Below, piece after piece: positions 13,160 to 27,601 of a stretch of 64,000 bases of DNA. Position 1 is the first letter of the stretch; each line of letters starts with the position of its first letter. A model generated the notes under the pieces. The model was not told the DNA's origin and searched no databases. It saw only the letters and a list, made by a program, of their open reading frames with translations. The stretch comes from Pseudomonadota bacterium (GTDB lineage: Bacteria > Desulfobacterota > JAPLJL01), in assembly GCA_026388655.1 (NCBI GenBank), contig JAPLJI010000057.1, forward strand, positions 3,604 to 67,603, read 5' to 3'. The position numbers were made by a program, and so were the translations under genes.

Positions 13160-15136
13160 TTGTTCCATTGGCAAAAATCCATCATGAACAATTTTTTCAT
13201 GTCCGATTATAGTTATCTGCTCCTGCTGAAATCCTTTGTCACCATAATAAAAAATTCCTTCCTCGTGTCCTTTATTATCGCCTTATCGGTATCCTTGGGA
13301 AGTTACCTGTTAGAAAAACTTAAATTCAATTTCCCCTCATTATTAGAAAAGCTTGTTTGCTCGGCCGGGGTGGGCCTGGGGTTATATGCCCACCTGGTTC
13401 TCTTGATCGGGTTCCTGGGATGGTTATATCCTCAGGTTTTTTATGCAATTTTATTAATCAATTTTTTGCTATTTTATGGAAACCTTAAAAAATGGGTTCT
13501 GCAATTAAAAGAACAGAATTTGCTGGTTTTTTTCAGGTTTTCTGACTGGAAGCAGGTCTTTTTTTACGGGGGAGCGGCGGTAATTATCCTTTCTTCATTT
13601 CTGGTAAATCTTACCCCGGTTTCATTCTATGATAATCTAATTTACCACTACGGGGTTCCTAAATACTATATCGCCTCCCATCGAATCATATTCATCGAGG
13701 GAAATATTTATGCAAATTTCCCTCAAATAGCGGAAATGCTTTTTCTGCTGGGGATGATTCTGGATTCTCCCTTGACCGCCAATCTTATCCATTTTTCCCT
13801 GGGCATCTTTCTTTTGCTTACGGTTTACTCATTCAGCCGAAACCGCTGGGGCAATTCCGCCGCCAATTTCGCCATATTATTCCTGGTCATGACTCCCGGA
13901 TTAATGCAATGGATAAGCCTGCCAAACGTGGATATAGAATTCGCCTGGTTTAACCTGCTCGCCCTTTTTATTTTGCTTAAATGGTTTGATTGTCGGAGTC
14001 CGAAAATCCTGGTCCTGTCCGCGGTGTTTGCCGGGCTTTCAATCGGGGTGAAATATACCGGGCTCATTTATTCTTTGGGAATTTTTATTTTGTTGATGGC
14101 AATCGAAAATATCATCACCCGTCAGTTAAGCTCCCTTAAGTTGCTAAAAAATATTTCCATCTATTGCGGGGTCGGGTTGATTGTTTTCCTTCCTTATTTG
14201 ATCAAAAATTATCATTTCACCGGGAATCCGGTTTCCCCGGCGCTTCCTCAGGTATTCAATCCCAACGGGGATCAGACCCGTGAATACCAGGCCTTATTGC
14301 GGGACGGGAAAAACGTAACTTTCTCAAAAGATTTTCTCCATACGATTCCTCAGCTGGTAAAAACTTTCTTAAATAATACTGTTCTGGTAAAAAAATATAT
14401 CGAATTCGGATCGTTTATCGGACCCCATTTTTTAATATTCCTGCCTTTAATATTTTTTCTCCGAAGGAAATGGAAAGAAATCCGGCTCTTAATTTATTTC
14501 CTCATCCTTTACGCGGGATTTTGGATTGGCACCTTTTGGATGATTAGATTTTTATATCCGGCCATCATCGTTACCTTCATGCTCATTGGTTACGCCTTCG
14601 ATAATTTAGACAAAAAACCAGGTTATCCAAGATTACTTATGCAGGCGGTTTTTATCTTGATCTTTGCGTTAAATTTTTTCGTTTTCCTGGAAATCTTTGA
14701 TCGGACAAAATCAATAAAATTTATTTTCGAAGGGATGGATGACAAATTATATATGTCCCGGGTTCTAAGCTCTTATCCCGTAATGGAGAAAGCGAATACC
14801 GAATTGCCCCCCTCCGCGAAGATTTTATGCCTGGGGGAAACCAGAAATTTTTACCTGGATATTCAAAATATCTGCCCTTCCGTATTCAATGCCAATCCCC
14901 TGTTCAAAATCCTGAAAGAATCCAATGATGTTATAGAAATAAAGGCCGGATTAAAGCAGCTGAAAATCACCCACATCCTCTACGACCCGGATGAATTGGA
15001 ACGAATTAGCCATTTCGGTGTTTATTTCCCGCCCCGGAATGAAAATAGCAAGGCCGCGCTCTTTAACAAATTTTTGGAAGATTGTTGGCCCCCAGTTTAC
15101 GAACAAAATCGTGTTTATTTATTAGGGATTAAATAA
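13160..15136 (+). CDS. Polytopic membrane protein, probably a GT-C-fold glycosyltransferase (GT39/ArnT-like), in a sharply AT-rich insert
   Basis: 658-aa ORF with at least 12 predicted TM helices and a C-terminal soluble domain of about 150 aa. Local GC is far below the flanking DNA. The true start may be the MNNFF or MSDYS Met. Confidence 0.5.
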   Translation: MFHWQKSIMNNFFMSDYSYLLLLKSFVTIIKNSFLVSFIIALSVSLGSYLLEKLKFNFPSLLEKLVCSAGVGLGLYAHLVLLIGFLGWLYPQVFYAILLINFLLFYGNLKKWVLQLKEQNLLVFFRFSDWKQVFFYGGAAVIILSSFLVNLTPVSFYDNLIYHYGVPKYYIASHRIIFIEGNIYANFPQIAEMLFLLGMILDSPLTANLIHFSLGIFLLLTVYSFSRNRWGNSAANFAILFLVMTPGLMQWISLPNVDIEFAWFNLLALFILLKWFDCRSPKILVLSAVFAGLSIGVKYTGLIYSLGIFILLMAIENIITRQLSSLKLLKNISIYCGVGLIVFLPYLIKNYHFTGNPVSPALPQVFNPNGDQTREYQALLRDGKNVTFSKDFLHTIPQLVKTFLNNTVLVKKYIEFGSFIGPHFLIFLPLIFFLRRKWKEIRLLIYFLILYAGFWIGTFWMIRFLYPAIIVTFMLIGYAFDNLDKKPGYPRLLMQAVFILIFALNFFVFLEIFDRTKSIKFIFEGMDDKLYMSRVLSSYPVMEKANTELPPSAKILCLGETRNFYLDIQNICPSVFNANPLFKILKESNDVIEIKAGLKQLKITHILYDPDELERISHFGVYFPPRNENSKAALFNKFLEDCWPPVYEQNRVYLLGIK

Positions 15137-23526: not shown

Positions 23527-23624
23527 TAAAACATTTTCCCGCCTGCCCGGAAGGAAATTATCGGTTATAATAATTATATAGTTTGGTGGTTGTTCGTTGT
23601 GCCCACATAACCTCGTCAATAAAT

Positions 23625-23930
23625 ATGAATAAATTTGGAATTGCCCTCCCCGTAGAACAAATAAAATCTTTCTGCCAAAAGTGGAAAGTAAAGGAATTCT
23701 CACTCTTCGGCTCCGTACTTCGTCCCGATTTCAATCCCGAAAGCGACGTGGATGTTCTAGTGGTCTTTGCCGAAAATGCTGGCTGGGATCTCTGGGACAT
23801 CATCGAGATGCGGGATGAGCTGAAAACCATTTTTGGCCGGGAAGTGGATCTGGTGGAAAAACGCGCCCTGCGGAATCCTTTCCGGAAGCATGAAATCCTT
23901 CAGACCCACGAGATCGTCTATGCCTCCTGA
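23625..23930 (+). CDS. mntA: MntA-type nucleotidyltransferase antitoxin
   Basis: FGSVLRPD...SDVDVLVVF is the minimal nucleotidyltransferase (GS-x9-DxD) signature. The ORF extends upstream to 23583. Its stop overlaps the start of the next gene. Confidence 0.75.
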   Translation: MNKFGIALPVEQIKSFCQKWKVKEFSLFGSVLRPDFNPESDVDVLVVFAENAGWDLWDIIEMRDELKTIFGREVDLVEKRALRNPFRKHEILQTHEIVYAS

Positions 23931-24285
23931 AAAACGCGACCCAGCTCTCCTGTGGGACATCCTTAACACCGCCAAAAAGACGATCAAATCCATCGAAGGG
24001 CTTGAACTCAAGGATTACTTGGCGGATGAGAACCTCAGACTGACGGTTGAACGCCGGATCGAAATTATCGGGGAAGCCGCCCGGCGAACCAGCGAAGCAT
24101 TCCGGAACAGCCATCCCGAGATCCCTTGGAAATCAATGATCGGCCAGCGCAACGTGATGGCCCACGAGTATGACGAGATTGATCACGAGCGGGTATACAA
24201 TCTTGTCAAGCAACACCTGCCAGCATTGGTCAGCCTTCTGGAACCGCTCGTCCCTCCTCCTCCACCGGAAGAAAAAGTCTCCTAA
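23920..24285 (+). CDS. hepT: HepT-type HEPN toxin (DUF86)
   Basis: Contains RNVMAHEY, an R-x4-H-x-Y HEPN motif. ATGCCTCCTGA overlap with mntA. The long ORF from 23833 is probably an upstream extension. Confidence 0.75.
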   Translation: MPPEKRDPALLWDILNTAKKTIKSIEGLELKDYLADENLRLTVERRIEIIGEAARRTSEAFRNSHPEIPWKSMIGQRNVMAHEYDEIDHERVYNLVKQHLPALVSLLEPLVPPPPPEEKVS

Positions 24286-24589: not shown

Positions 24590-24961
24590 TTAGCGAAAAA
24601 CCTTTAAAAGAAAGAGATTCAATCTTCTCAATTTATCTTTACTTGCATGCCGAAGCAAAGAAATGATATTTATCATAACTTCTTCTTTTTCCTTTTCATT
24701 TGGCAGAAGATCGAATGAGAAAAGTTCCCCAAGTTTAACCCCAAGAACACTGGCAAGATTATCCATTGTTTTCAAGGTAACATTTATCTGGCCCCTCTCT
24801 ATCGCCCCATAATATTTAGGATTAATCCCGCCTCGTTCAGCCACTTCCTCTTGAGTTAAACCTTTGGCTTTTCTTATTGATCTCAGCCTTTCCCCAAAAG
24901 CCTTATAAATATTTACCAAATCCCACCTCCTGGTTTTTATAGTAGGAGGTTGGATTAACAA
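24590..24961 (-). CDS. XRE-family helix-turn-helix transcriptional regulator
   Basis: LRSIRKAKGLTQEEVAERGGINPKYYGAIERGQINVTLKTMDNLASVLGV is a classic HTH_3 domain. It is divergent from the two downstream plus-strand genes. Confidence 0.75.
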   Translation of the reverse strand: MLIQPPTIKTRRWDLVNIYKAFGERLRSIRKAKGLTQEEVAERGGINPKYYGAIERGQINVTLKTMDNLASVLGVKLGELFSFDLLPNEKEKEEVMINIISLLRHASKDKLRRLNLFLLKVFR

Positions 24962-25229
24962 GCAAAACCATATTATAAATAGGATTGTTTGTTGATTATC
25001 CTATTTATATATGGTATTTATAATTTCATAGAAGGGCATGACCGGTTATTTCTTTAACTTCGTGGGTAATAAAAGGTTTTATTTTAATTCCAATGAATGA
25101 TAAATGGCGAAAAGGAATCATAAACTTAGATGATTCAAAATCAATTTACTTAAGAGCCCCTCCTTGTTTTGGGTAGGGGAAGTTACTTTTTAAAAAAATA
25201 AATATAAATACCAATAAGGGGGGCACAAA

Positions 25230-25628
25230 ATGTTCAAAAGGTTGAGTTTGATTTGCGGTTCGATTCTTTTTTCATTATTGATTGGTTGCGCGGTTAATGG
25301 AACTATTCCAAAAAATTATTACATTAGCACGGGGACTTTAACTACACCGGATTATCAATTGAGAGAATCGGTAAGTGGACAAAGTTGCTCCGGTTTTTAT
25401 CTTTGGGGTTTTAAAGGTGGGAAAATTGGCAGCGTTCAGGAAGCGATAGAAAATGCAATAAAAAATAATCCGAGGTTACGGGAACAAGGTGATGGAATTG
25501 TGATGTATAAGGAGAAAACCAGTCTTACTGCTTACGCTTTTTTATGTCTCTTAACTTATGGATTGGTTTGCCCAAATGTTAATTGTGTTAATGTTCAAGG
25601 AACTATGGTAAAGAAATTCGAAAAGTAG
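25230..25628 (+). CDS. Small predicted lipoprotein of unknown function
   Basis: Signal peptide with lipobox LLIGC. AT-rich. It lies between the XRE regulator and the HEPN-like gene. Confidence 0.5.
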   Translation: MFKRLSLICGSILFSLLIGCAVNGTIPKNYYISTGTLTTPDYQLRESVSGQSCSGFYLWGFKGGKIGSVQEAIENAIKNNPRLREQGDGIVMYKEKTSLTAYAFLCLLTYGLVCPNVNCVNVQGTMVKKFEK

Positions 25629-25714
25629 TTTTGTTTGAAATAAGTTCGCAGTCCTCATCCTTTTCGGGGGTGTAGTAGTGGCCCTCAACGACCGCCCCAC
25701 AGGGAAGAATTATC

Positions 25715-26569
25715 ATGAGCGACCTGATTTTTGAAATAACGAATTTTTCTTTTTTCGAGCAACTGGAATTCGGGAGAATAAGAGTAATTCCTAAAAACGA
25801 TGCAGAAAATTATTTAAAAGAATTAAAGGAAAAAGCAAATCGAAGTGGTTTTTTTCTGCCGCCAGATAATACGCCTACGCATGAAGTCACAATTGGGCCA
25901 TCTTCATGCCGGGAATCAAATCAAGATATGGAGTTTGTTTGCTGGTTACTTTCCTTCTTCAGTAAGCGATTGGTTCTCGGCTGGGATAGGGTTTATCATA
26001 ATCCGACAAATGTTGTTAATAAATGCTTAATTCCAAATAAGTCAAATTTGGAGAAAGTCTTAAAGCATTTTCTTGAAAGGTATGACTGCGCATATTATAG
26101 GAAGGTTCGGAGTAAGTATTTCAAATTTAATCCAAAAGAAGAATTTGAAGAACAGGCAATATTAAGAGCTATCCTGTATCAGCATGTTAGGCAGTATGAT
26201 TATTGGAGTAAGGACTGGATCCATGCCGCAATCGCATTTATGGAACATGACAACTTAAAAATGGTATTAGCAAATCATTCTGGCGATTACGAATTAGATG
26301 GCAAAAAACTTTTCAATAAATATGGACTTTATCAACCCAAAAAAGCCAATGAATTTCGCGATCTAAGAAATGAATTTTTCCATCGGGGAACATTTTATGG
26401 GGTTCTGTTTGATTTAAATGGAAACATTAAAAGTAATGACTTAATGAAAGAGATGACCCACCTTCGAGCACTTAACCAGCGTTTAGTATGCTTGGCTTTT
26501 GATTATGAGAATAAATTTACCAAAACCCCTTGGGACGATCGAGCAACTCACCCATTTGACATCATTTAA
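25715..26569 (+). CDS. Uncharacterised 284-aa protein with a C-terminal R-x4-H motif; candidate HEPN-domain Abi2/AbiD-like abortive-infection effector
   Basis: FRDLRNEFFHRG (R218-x4-H223) resembles the phi-RNxxxH HEPN signature. Low GC, no TM helices. Sits in an island with another HEPN toxin and an XRE regulator. Confidence 0.4.
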   Translation: MSDLIFEITNFSFFEQLEFGRIRVIPKNDAENYLKELKEKANRSGFFLPPDNTPTHEVTIGPSSCRESNQDMEFVCWLLSFFSKRLVLGWDRVYHNPTNVVNKCLIPNKSNLEKVLKHFLERYDCAYYRKVRSKYFKFNPKEEFEEQAILRAILYQHVRQYDYWSKDWIHAAIAFMEHDNLKMVLANHSGDYELDGKKLFNKYGLYQPKKANEFRDLRNEFFHRGTFYGVLFDLNGNIKSNDLMKEMTHLRALNQRLVCLAFDYENKFTKTPWDDRATHPFDII

Positions 26570-26882
26570 TTTCATCTGTCGCGGAAATTCGAGGGTCATC
26601 TAATGAATCTCCCTGCGGCAGAGACCGCAGGGTATCTGGGAAGGAAGCCTTCATCCCCGTGGCAAGACCACGGGGAATTCGGCAAAATCCTTGGTTAAAA
26701 GTCGCCCTAAAAAAGCTGCTTCTCTTTTCTAAAGATAAAATTTTTATTTTAATTCTCAATCTCGGTAAGAAAGAAATTTAGTTCTGGATTTTCCGCTTCT
26801 CAATTTATTTTCACCCTCCCCCTACTTCGCTAATCCATCCTTCGCTAAAGCTTCGGAGGACAGGAGCTTCGAAGGGCAGGCC

Positions 26883-26925
26883 ATCGTCCCCTCCCATCAA
26901 GGGAGGGGACGATGATTTTTATTAA
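26883..26925 (+). terminator. Perfect GC-rich hairpin followed by a T-run (catcgtcccctccc-atcaa-gggaggggacgatg-atttttatt)
   Basis: 14-bp perfect stem and a U-tract, lying downstream of the 25715-26569 gene. Confidence 0.5.
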
Positions 26926-26957
26926 CAATAACTTCCTGCCCACCCGTTAAAACAAGC

Positions 26958-26993
26958 AGTCTACTCTAAAGTAGACTACTCCAAAGTAGACTA
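26958..26993. repeat. Tandem palindromic site agtctactctaaagtagact / actccaaagtagacta
   Basis: 7-bp inverted repeat arms AGTCTAC...GTAGACT, with the GTAGACTA half-site repeated 16 bp later. Lies in ORF-free AT-rich DNA. Confidence 0.5.
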
Positions 26994-27406
26994 AACTTTC
27001 ATTGGTTATGATGAACCTGATTTCCTCATTTCTTGGCGGCGAGAATACCGGCGACTTGCGGGCGAAGTTCTTTCTCAAACTATTACCATAATGAAGAAAA
27101 TAACTATGTTTTATTATATTTTCTATGGCAAATGTTCGTGTAAGTCAAACAATTTCCATTTGTAATCTAATCGATAGTACAATGAAAAAACACTCTTTAG
27201 TGAATTACCCCGCTCTTACGGGCAAGGCATCACGGACAATCGTTACGTTTTAGCTTTTGTTAAAATGCTGGTAGGGGCCGATGCCCCCATCGGCCCACAT
27301 AATTGGTGCGTTCGGGGAACGCACCCTACAAAAAACCGTTGCAATGAAGCTCCCCGCGGCAAGACCGCGGGGTATCTAAATCAAAAAGACTCTTATGTTG
27401 TCTATC

Positions 27407-27474
27407 GTCATTCCTGCGGAAGCAGGAATCCAGAAAAACAAAAAAACTAGATTCCGCATCAAGTGCGGAATGAC
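27407..27474. repeat. GTCATTCC-hairpin repeat (short copy)
   Basis: gtcattcctgcggaagcaggaatccag ... gattccgcatcaagtgcggaatgac. Confidence 0.7.
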
Positions 27475-27601
27475 GGAATAAGGCAACCCTGTGGCAAGAC
27501 CACGGGGAATGGCAAGTTCATCCCCGCCCTTGACGGGGTTTTCGTATTTAACTATGAACGTTGAACCGTGAATCTTTAACCGGCCTATTTACAAAAACGA
27601 A

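What the first reader, a model, noticed from the sequence alone, without database searches (positions are those of the whole stretch)
25715..26569. Orphan 284-aa protein with an RNxxxH HEPN-like motif under a divergent XRE regulator
Residues FRDLRNEFFHRG supply R218-x4-H223 with N at +1, the pattern of HEPN RNase active sites in Abi2/AbiD-F, RnlA and HepT. The rest of the protein is low-complexity-free, AT-rich, and lacks recognisable domains. It is preceded by a small lipoprotein gene (25230-25628) and faces an XRE HTH gene across a 270-bp divergent promoter region. This suggests a repressor-controlled toxic effector.
Basis: inference. Interest (0 to 1): 0.75.

Follow-up and report, generated by a model that had tools for sequence, protein, structure and literature searches.

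The report
Unnamed HEPN-like defence nuclease family member
This 284-aa gene is a divergent member of an unnamed family of about 300-aa proteins, found in bacteria and at least one archaeal MAG, with a new N-terminal domain and a C-terminal HEPN-type (predicted RNase) domain; most relatives sit beside restriction-modification systems, so it is probably an anti-phage RNA-cutting effector and not a repressor-controlled toxin.

Summary
ORF 25715-26569 (+) encodes 284 aa with a single RNEFFH (R218-x4-H223, N219), at 35.6% GC in a ~60% GC genome. No Pfam, NCBIfam, PADLOC or PHROGs model matches it.

It is not an orphan. Exhaustive profile searches place it in an unnamed family of at least 192 protein clusters of ~300 aa. 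R218, H223 and D179 are invariant in 123/123 aligned sequences, and N219 in 121/123.

About half of informative family loci lie directly downstream of DNA methyltransferases of unrelated types. Where I checked, those RM systems carry their own nucleases, as in the known PrrC-like arrangement.

The XRE and lipoprotein neighbours occur only in one lineage and are absent from the other subfamily member. This does not support repressor control.

Verdict: a new HEPN-superfamily family and a likely defence RNase. Activity is untested. Interest is moderate.

The parts
25715..26569 (+). 284-aa gene, a divergent member of an unnamed two-domain family (new N-domain plus HEPN-like C-domain)
   Evidence: ORF. 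Family. Under purifying selection against the L001 orthologue (dN/dS 0.19).
25715..26026 (+). N-terminal alpha/beta domain (about residues 1-104), no known relative; carries the family-invariant H56 and near-invariant R85
   Evidence: AF2 model with strands 4-9, 17-19, 22-26, 54-60 and helices 30-40, 68-81. H56 is 123/123 and R85 is 121/123; both are kept in distant plasmid members.
26027..26500 (+). C-terminal helical domain (about residues 105-262) with HEPN-type four-helix core: H1 146-159, H2 167-189, insert 196-202, H3 210-224, H4 241-261
26366..26383 (+). Codons for R218-N219-E-F-F-H223, the predicted catalytic Rx4H motif at the C-terminal end of helix-3
   Evidence: R 123/123, N 121/123, H 123/123. 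Aligned in register with HepT RNxxxH by hhalign.
26249..26251 (+). Codon for D179, the invariant acidic residue in predicted helix-2
   Evidence: 123/123 and kept in plasmid members. Corresponds to the helix-2 acidic residue of HEPN domains.
25230..25628 (+). 132-aa lipoprotein gene (lipobox LIGC), 86 nt upstream on the same strand; lineage-specific neighbour, function unknown
   Evidence: only a weak DUF6567 hit, E 0.084. Present in L001, L002 and L008, absent from P0003 loci. Lies in the same diverged block as the 284-aa gene.
24590..24961 (-). XRE-family HTH gene, divergent; resembles RM controller (C) proteins; link to the 284-aa gene unproven
   Evidence: HTH_3 E 1.7e-16. PADLOC Control_protein E 2.5e-14. 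dS 0.044, the same as the flanks.
24974..25009 (.). Perfect 12-nt inverted repeat TATAAATAGGAT-N12-ATCCTATTTATA next to the XRE start; candidate XRE operator
   Evidence: Lies in the near-invariant part of the intergenic region when compared with L001.
23583..24285 (+). MNT / HepT toxin-antitoxin pair (a genuine HEPN) in the same islet; context, not part of the module
   Evidence: NTP_transf_2 E 6.6e-19 and HepT-like E 3.7e-24.
26882..26914 (+). Strong terminator-like hairpin (14-bp stem, 10 GC pairs, T-run) 313 nt downstream of the stop codon

Best explanation
The gene encodes a stand-alone effector from an undescribed protein family. It has a novel N-terminal alpha/beta domain joined to a C-terminal HEPN-fold domain. 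The predicted active site is R218-N219-x3-H223 at the end of helix-3, D179 in helix-2 and R256 in helix-4. By analogy with characterised HEPN enzymes, two copies would dimerise to form a composite, metal-independent RNase cleft, and the N-domain (invariant H56, R85) would hold the enzyme inactive until a signal arrives. At family level its usual role is as an accessory gene placed directly after complete restriction-modification systems. This is the known 'second line' arrangement typified by PrrC-EcoprrI, in which the RNase fires when the RM system is neutralised. In this window the gene is a solo copy in a low-GC defence and toxin-antitoxin islet (MNT-HepT, XRE, lipoprotein, a deleted AbiE pair), so it would act like single-gene HEPN defences such as ApeA. 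Shown: family membership, residue conservation, predicted fold and topology, gene neighbourhoods, purifying selection. Inferred: RNase activity, dimerisation, autoinhibition by the N-domain, defence role.
Confidence: 0.6

Rival explanations
1. The 284-aa protein is a toxin kept silent by the divergently encoded XRE repressor, as a TA-like or C-protein-like control circuit, possibly with the lipoprotein gene in the same operon.
For: XRE is a genuine HTH and resembles RM controller proteins and HipB/Y4mF-type antitoxins. A perfect 12-nt palindrome lies in the shared intergenic region. The XRE-lipoprotein-gene order is kept in L001, L002 and L008.
Against: Those loci are the same syntenic locus in close relatives, with flanks 97-99% identical, so they are not independent evidence. 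P0003, the only independent subfamily member, has no XRE and an unrelated 249-aa membrane protein upstream. No HTH gene emerged as a recurrent neighbour among the 62 distinct family proteins, although most small neighbours were not classified. The genes are divergent, not co-transcribed. XRE is 97.6% identical between the window and L001 while the effector is 77% identical, and the divergence breakpoint lies between them. The palindrome abuts the XRE start, which fits autoregulation. Promoter-like hits are no more frequent than in shuffled sequence.
Confidence: 0.15
2. The family is a novel restriction endonuclease (DNase) that partners the adjacent methyltransferases, and the window copy is a solitary or methylation-dependent nuclease.
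For: There is tight same-strand linkage, in several loci with a 4-nt overlap, to MTases of several unrelated families, as is typical for REase genes.
Against: The five RM partners checked already contain a nuclease: an HSDR_N domain in the type IIG fusions of L009, L010, L026 and L053, and a separate ResIII/HSDR_N R subunit in L017. About half of the informative loci, the window and the plasmid copies have no MTase nearby; a classical REase there would be lethal. The conserved residues are R, N, H and D, with no PD-(D/E)xK, HNH, GIY-YIG or PLD signature and no conserved Lys. Fold hits are HEPN domains, not REase folds.
Confidence: 0.07
3. The HEPN-like domain is a non-catalytic binding module, for RNA, nucleotide or protein, that regulates or scaffolds the RM partner, like the inactive HEPN domains of MtlR or NTase substrate-binding subunits.
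Against: According to that paper, inactive HEPN domains generally lack Rx4-6H. Here R, N, H and the helix-2 Asp are invariant across about 20% identity, which indicates catalysis.
Confidence: 0.1
4. The lipoprotein and the 284-aa protein form a two-gene envelope-linked module, for example an envelope sensor coupled to a cytoplasmic effector.
For: The two genes share the diverged block and are 86 nt apart with no predicted terminator between them. The P0003 loci also have an upstream envelope protein, 249 aa with a signal peptide and a transmembrane helix.
Against: The two upstream proteins are unrelated (BLASTP E 0.9). Among neighbours of at least 120 aa within 4 kb, no relative of the 132-aa lipoprotein appears outside the window's own lineage. 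There are only two lineages to compare.
Confidence: 0.05

Closest known systems
ApeA (single-gene HEPN defence; Pfam HEPN_Apea PF18739)
   Same: [quoted passage not shown] It acts as a homodimer and defence is lost in an R-to-A mutant (bioRxiv 10.64898/2026.03.20.713152). ApeA genes are sometimes embedded in R-M operons (PMC3710099). HEPN_Apea gave the only faint HEPN-family Pfam signal among family members.
   Different: ApeA is about 600 aa and this protein is 284. The window protein has no Pfam match, and only 2 of 123 relatives match at E 0.12. The N-domains show no detectable relationship. No activity data exist for this family.
PrrC-EcoprrI and the other R-M-linked HEPN clades (PMC3710099)
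   Same: A HEPN gene embedded in or appended to a complete R-M system; the paper counts at least 16 such clades and proposes a second-line RNase released when the R-M system is disabled. The main family here shows that linkage, including a DOC/Fic-containing variant.
   Different: PrrC and RloC carry an N-terminal ABC ATPase, whereas this family has a small novel alpha/beta domain. The window copy itself has no R-M neighbour. No interaction with an R-M enzyme has been shown.
HepT of MNT-HepT (type VII TA; PF01934)
   Different: HepT is about 120-150 aa, consists of the HEPN domain alone, has RX4HXY and is neutralised by an adjacent MNT. This protein is twice that size with an extra domain, lacks the Tyr after His (HRG here, HE- in the family consensus), has no MNT of its own and fails the Pfam model.
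AbiA C-terminal HEPN domain (8oz7) and Abi2/AbiD/AbiF
   Different: AbiA's HEPN domain is fused to a reverse-transcriptase-like polymerase, which is absent here. There is no Pfam Abi_2 hit.
HEC-08 (DUF3644 HEPN embedded in Hma systems)
   Same: A HEPN gene discovered by its embedding in another defence system; mutating the Rx4-6H histidine abolishes defence (bioRxiv 10.1101/2024.01.29.577857).
   Different: A different family (DUF3644 plus zinc fingers) embedded in Hma, not R-M. No PADLOC model matches this family.

Membership tests
HEPN superfamily | [quoted passage not shown] | tested here: met
HEPN superfamily | Rx4-6H motif at the end of helix-3 or start of the loop to helix-4, with a polar residue (N/D/H) after R | tested here: met
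   R218-N219-x3-H223 are the last residues of helix 210-224. R is 123/123, N is 121/123 and H is 123/123.
HEPN superfamily | Conserved acidic residue in helix-2 near the motif (present in many active families) | tested here: inconclusive
   D179 is invariant (123/123) and lies in predicted helix-2.
HEPN superfamily | Statistically significant sequence or profile similarity to an established HEPN family | tested here: inconclusive
   No Pfam hit. PDB profile search empty. hhalign against a HepT profile gives score 19.5, p 0.019, probability 2.4%, with 1 of 60 shuffles as high.
HEPN superfamily | Metal-independent endoRNase activity from a dimeric composite site | not testable with these tools
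HepT/MNT type VII toxin-antitoxin (PF01934) | Match to the HepT-like model and a cognate adjacent MNT gene | tested here: not met
   No PF01934 hit. The only MNT nearby (23583-23930) pairs with its own HepT.
ApeA (PF18739) | Match to the HEPN_Apea model; about 600-aa protein | tested here: not met
   No match for the window protein; 2 of 123 relatives match at E 0.12, far below the gathering score. Length is 284 aa against about 600.
Abi2 / AbiD / AbiF (PF07751) | Match to the Abi_2 model | tested here: not met
   Absent from the Pfam results for the window protein and not among the families listed for the 123 relatives.
PrrC/RloC anticodon nucleases | N-terminal ABC-type ATPase fused to a C-terminal HEPN domain | tested here: not met
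   No ATPase domain by Pfam or NCBIfam. The N-domain is about 105 aa, alpha/beta.
PrrC/RloC anticodon nucleases | Embedded in or next to an R-M system (PrrC) | tested here: not met
   Met for about half of the main family but not for the window gene: no MTase in the islet or in the ORFs listed between about 20.2 and 30.8 kb.
Type II toxin-antitoxin with XRE-family antitoxin | Co-transcribed adjacent gene pair whose pairing is conserved among homologues | tested here: not met
   The genes are divergent and separated by a lipoprotein gene. P0003 loci lack XRE. XRE and the effector have discordant divergence.
Type II restriction endonuclease | Cognate MTase adjacent, and the protein is the system's only nuclease | tested here: not met
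   No MTase next to the window gene. Where an RM partner was present and checked, it had its own HSDR_N nuclease.
R-M controller (C) protein (for the XRE gene) | Small HTH similar to C proteins and located within an R-M operon | tested here: inconclusive
   PADLOC Control_protein E 2.5e-14, but there are no R or M genes in the islet.

The most novel reading that the evidence does not exclude
The family is a new, minimal, ATPase-free 'guard' of restriction-modification enzymes. Its novel N-domain (invariant H56, R85) would bind the type IIG or type I enzyme, or a small-molecule or nucleic-acid signal of its failure, and release a HEPN RNase when phage anti-restriction disables the R-M system. 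Solo copies such as the one in this window would have been rewired to sense a phage cue directly. This would be a compact and widespread second-layer immunity module, found in many bacterial phyla, in archaea and on plasmids of Acinetobacter, Burkholderia and Providencia, with a sensor fold not seen before.
Probability: 0.25. Interest if true: 0.7.

Novelty: new variant of a known kind. Interest (0 to 1): 0.45.

Why it matters
HEPN RNases are common effectors of prokaryotic immunity (Cas13, Csm6, PrrC, ApeA, HepT). R-M-linked HEPN genes were predicted in 2013 to form a second line of defence, but few have been tested. This work identifies a family of at least 192 clusters that no domain or defence database names. 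It has a clear catalytic signature, a new N-terminal domain and a strong association with complete R-M systems. It also has members in culturable hosts (WP_125279689.1 on an Acinetobacter variabilis plasmid, WP_217445022.1 in B. cenocepacia HI2424), so the idea can be tested directly. For genome annotation, it turns a set of 'hypothetical proteins' into a candidate defence gene. It also shows that the XRE and lipoprotein neighbours, the most striking local feature of this window, are probably incidental.

Tried and rejected
1. Direct domain assignment failed. Pfam, PADLOC and NCBIfam returned nothing for the protein at E<=1, and PHROGs gave only a noise-level hit at E 0.64. Scanning all 123 relatives gave only noise in Pfam (MINAR1_N, DUF7646, HEPN_Apea at E 0.12) and in PADLOC.

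2. PDB sequence-profile searches with the 3- and 123-sequence alignments gave only spurious hits at E 0.65 and 1.5.

3. AF2 on the 3-sequence alignment was unusable (pLDDT 35) and was replaced by the 123-sequence run.

4. Foldseek against PDB and BFVD gave no hit better than E 0.086, with TM below 0.25. The kinase and topoisomerase hits there are noise. AFDB50 was not available.

5. hhalign of the whole family against the single window HepT sequence gave nothing. It was repeated with a 120-sequence HepT profile on the C-domain alone and gave a weak signal.

6. Phage origin was rejected: no relatives in 2.9 million viral contigs.

7. Homology between the two upstream envelope proteins (132 aa and 249 aa) was rejected (E 0.9).

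8. The restriction-endonuclease reading was considered after finding the MTase linkage. It was rejected because the partners checked carry their own nucleases and many family copies are solo.

9. RNA genes in the islet were ruled out: all Rfam hits were far below gathering scores, and there are no tRNAs in the window.

10. The promoter and terminator scan found no more promoter-like sites than shuffled sequence (9 against 7.9 +/- 3.1), so no promoter claims are made.

11. Model coordinates could not be read, so active-site geometry and N-domain contacts remain unchecked.

Full report
**1. The observation**

ORF 25715-26569 (+) is real: an ATG start and 284 codons. The peptide FRDLRNEFFHRG gives R218, N219 and H223, and this is the only Rx4H in the protein. 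From the protein's own composition the expected number of chance matches is 0.59 for Rx4H and 0.046 for RNx3H. The ORF is 35.6% GC and lies in a low-GC stretch at about 24-27.5 kb, in a genome of about 55-64% GC.

Pfam, PADLOC and NCBIfam give nothing for it at E<=1, and PHROGs gives only a noise-level hit at E 0.64. The upstream 132-aa ORF (25230-25628) has a canonical lipobox (LIGC), read from the translation. The divergent gene at 24590-24961 (-) is a solid XRE-type HTH (E 1.7e-16). The description is correct.

**2. The protein is not an orphan**

The word-indexed search found only the protein itself (an NCBI MAG 'Proteobacteria bacterium' hypothetical protein) and two relatives at 70% and 51% identity. 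An exhaustive HMMER search of 1.84 billion representatives with that 3-sequence profile added ten proteins at E 5.6e-7 to 7.8e-4. A profile built from all 13 then retrieved 192 clusters. The 120 listed are 276-343 aa (most about 300) and have no precomputed Pfam domain; the few that carry a name are called 'hypothetical'.

Sources include MAGs of Nitrospirae, Thermodesulfovibrionales, Syntrophaceae, Chloroflexota, Acidobacteriota, Methylomirabilis, Nitrospinota and Deltaproteobacteria, and one archaeal MAG (Methanomethylicaceae). More distant copies, at E 1e-25 to 1e-28 against the family HMM, lie on plasmids of Acinetobacter variabilis and Burkholderia cenocepacia HI2424, with a similar tblastn match in Providencia. 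None was found in 2.9 million viral contigs.

**3. Conservation**

In the 123-sequence alignment most relatives are 20-28% identical to the window protein. The invariant positions are H56, L86, L154, W168, D179, R218, H223, N254 and W273. N219 is kept in 121/123, R256 in 122/123 and R85 in 121/123. The plasmid members keep H56, R85, D179, R218, N219, H223 and R256, but not W168, N254 or W273.

**4. Fold**

AF2 with three sequences was useless (pLDDT 35). With 123 sequences it gave pLDDT 83.9 and pTM 0.87. The model has an N-terminal alpha/beta part (about residues 1-105) and a helical C-terminal part.

PMC3710099 defines HEPN as a four-helix up-down bundle in which Rx4-6H lies at the end of helix-3, a conserved acidic residue (when present) lies in helix-2, and inserts fall between helices 2 and 3. 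The model maps onto this directly:
- Helix-1: residues 146-159.
- Helix-2: residues 167-189, carrying D179.
- Insert helix: residues 196-202.
- Helix-3: residues 210-224, ending in R218...H223.
- Helix-4: residues 241-261, carrying N254 and R256.

**5. Genomic context of the family**

I collected 78 loci holding 62 distinct family proteins. Of 38 dereplicated loci with at least 850 nt of upstream sequence, 17 have a DNA methyltransferase or R-M subunit within three genes (18 if L033 is counted by homology to the L059 spacer gene). Usually it is directly upstream on the same strand, with a 4-nt overlap in several loci.

The partners are of unrelated types:
- Eco57I/MmeI-like type IIG fusions (HSDR_N nuclease + N6 MTase + TaqI_C): L009, L010, L026, L053. 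Related Eco57I-type MTases, partial or lacking a detected HSDR_N, sit upstream in L011, L012, L066 and others.
- An N6_N4 MTase: L015.
- An M-S fusion preceded by a ResIII/HSDR_N R subunit: L017.
- A type I S subunit directly upstream (L025) and an HsdM gene downstream (L034).
- An MTase-Fic/DOC fusion: L066.

The five partners checked for a nuclease have one (HSDR_N in L009, L010, L026 and L053, and the L017 R subunit). The ~300-aa protein is therefore an accessory there, not the restriction enzyme. PMC3710099 describes this same pattern for at least 16 HEPN clades and interprets it by analogy with PrrC-EcoprrI, and it also describes RM+HEPN+DOC trios.

Other family members sit beside Abi_C, DUF4062, RelA_SpoT, DUF5677, FRG or DUF4238 genes or TA modules, or stand alone among housekeeping genes.

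**6. Context of the window copy**

The islet reads MNT-HepT (23583-24285, a genuine HEPN TA pair), XRE (-), lipoprotein, the 284-aa gene, about 1 kb without long ORFs, then an RND transporter. L001, L002 and L008 are the same locus in close relatives; against L001 the housekeeping flanks are 91-99% identical at the DNA level (97-99% upstream, 91% over the RND transporter). L001 additionally carries an AbiEii/AbiEi pair. In the window that pair is cleanly missing at 27070/27071, leaving the last 14 codons of abiEii (27029-27070).

Between the window and L001, per-gene divergence is as follows:

| Gene | aa identity | dS | dN/dS |
|---|---|---|---|
| XRE | 97.6% | 0.044 | 0.28 |
| Lipoprotein | 82.6% | 0.205 | 0.43 |
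| 284-aa gene | 77% | 0.637 | 0.19 |

The flanking genes have dS 0.04-0.15. Identity drops at about position 25000, inside the XRE-lipoprotein intergenic region. The gene is therefore functional, but its allele has a different and older history than XRE and the flanks.

The only independent subfamily context is P0003 (loci L003-L007). It has no XRE and no homologous lipoprotein. Instead it has a 249-aa membrane protein upstream and WG-repeat and repeat proteins downstream, among HicA, HEPN-MNT and PemK modules.

A perfect palindrome, TATAAATAGGAT-N12-ATCCTATTTATA (24974-25009), lies next to the XRE start in the conserved part of the spacer. This is best read as XRE autoregulation. Promoter-like matches are no more frequent than in shuffled sequence.

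**7. Mechanism (inferred)**

I propose a homodimeric, metal-independent HEPN endoRNase whose cleft is built from R218, N219, H223, D179 and R256. It would be held inactive by the novel N-domain (invariant H56, R85) or, in R-M-linked members, by the R-M enzyme, and it would be triggered during phage infection. ApeA (an N-terminal sensor domain, a C-terminal HEPN with RNKITH, a homodimer, R-to-A mutant null) and HEC-08 (an embedded HEPN, His mutant null) are working precedents. None of these steps has been shown for this family.

**8. Rival explanations**

- XRE-repressed toxin or TA pair: 0.15, for the reasons in section 6.
- Novel REase: 0.07, because the partners checked have their own nucleases, solo copies exist and there is no DNase signature.
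- Non-catalytic HEPN-like binding module: 0.10, but the invariant R/N/H/D argue against it.
- Lipoprotein-effector two-gene module: 0.05, because the upstream envelope proteins in the two lineages are unrelated.

**9. Novelty and verdict**

The kind is known: HEPN defence RNases, R-M-linked or solo. The family itself, its N-domain and its extent are not in Pfam, NCBIfam, PADLOC or PHROGs, and no paper I found names it. I rate it a new variant of a known kind, with interest 0.45. It is not surprising to a specialist, but it is a well-defined and experimentally tractable defence candidate. The regulatory story is not supported.

Noticed in passing
window 23583-24285: An MNT (NTP_transf_2, E 6.6e-19) / HepT (HepT-like, E 3.7e-24) toxin-antitoxin pair lies 1.4 kb upstream, so the islet holds two HEPN-type genes. 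They are not close paralogues (hhalign probability 2.4%). A patch at 23882-24081 (HepT N-terminus) is only 75-78% identical to L001, while its surroundings are 94-98% identical.
   Followed up: partly
window 27029-27071, compared with L001 9009-10714: The syntenic relative L001 carries an AbiEii/AbiEi pair that is precisely absent from the window. The window keeps only the last 14 codons of abiEii (93% identity), which indicates a deletion scar in the window lineage.
   Followed up: yes
window 24974-25009: Perfect 12-nt inverted repeat TATAAATAGGAT-N12-ATCCTATTTATA, plus a direct repeat TATCCTATTTATA/TATGGTATTTATA (24997-25022), next to the XRE start. It is almost fully conserved in L001 while the rest of the spacer is about 56-75% identical. 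Probable XRE operator.
   Followed up: partly
window 25000-26570, compared with L001: Synonymous divergence is very uneven: 0.64 in the 284-aa gene and 0.21 in the lipoprotein gene, against 0.04-0.15 in XRE and the flanking genes. The breakpoint is at about 25000, suggesting allele replacement by recombination or long-maintained polymorphism at the effector.
   Followed up: yes
window 26570-27600: About 1 kb with no ORF longer than 65 aa and no Rfam or tRNA hit. It contains a strong GC-rich terminator-like hairpin (26882-26914) and a 17-bp-stem palindrome (26957-26993). Bases 26617-26816 have no counterpart in L001.
   Followed up: partly
window 13160-15136: A second low-GC patch (about 40% GC) encodes a 658-aa protein with a PMT_2 glycosyltransferase domain (E 3.7e-7). 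It is probably a horizontally acquired envelope glycosyltransferase and is unrelated to the finding.
   Followed up: partly
L066 526-2688 and L025 1115-2707: Beside family members: an Eco57I-type MTase fused to a Fic/DOC domain (L066), and a DUF4062 + HATPase_c_4 + Fic-like_C protein two genes upstream of a type I S subunit (L025). This echoes the RM+HEPN+DOC three-layer loci described in PMC3710099.
   Followed up: no
L010 4390-5460; L059 1615-2919 and L033 739-1974: In some R-M-linked loci an extra 356-434-aa gene with no Pfam match lies directly upstream of the family member. It sits between the MTase and the family member in L010 and L059; in L033 the contig is too short to show whether an MTase lies further upstream. 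The L059 and L033 proteins are homologous to each other. This may be a third component.
   Followed up: no
L079 3727-4680 (NZ_CP078030.1) and L080 5872-6921 (NC_008545.1): Distant family members on plasmids of cultured Acinetobacter variabilis (WP_125279689.1, solo among BrnT/A and RelE/ParE modules) and Burkholderia cenocepacia HI2424 (WP_217445022.1, next to FRG and DUF4238 genes and a 1105-aa hypothetical). Both are convenient for experiments.
   Followed up: partly
window residues 87-95 and 164-174 of the 284-aa protein (about 25973-26236): The window subfamily has replaced several residues that are near-invariant in the main family (Q87V, F88L, D93V, R95H, E164W, E169I, F171A, E174A) while keeping the catalytic set. 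These positions may mark a partner- or ligand-binding surface specific to the R-M-linked members.
   Followed up: no
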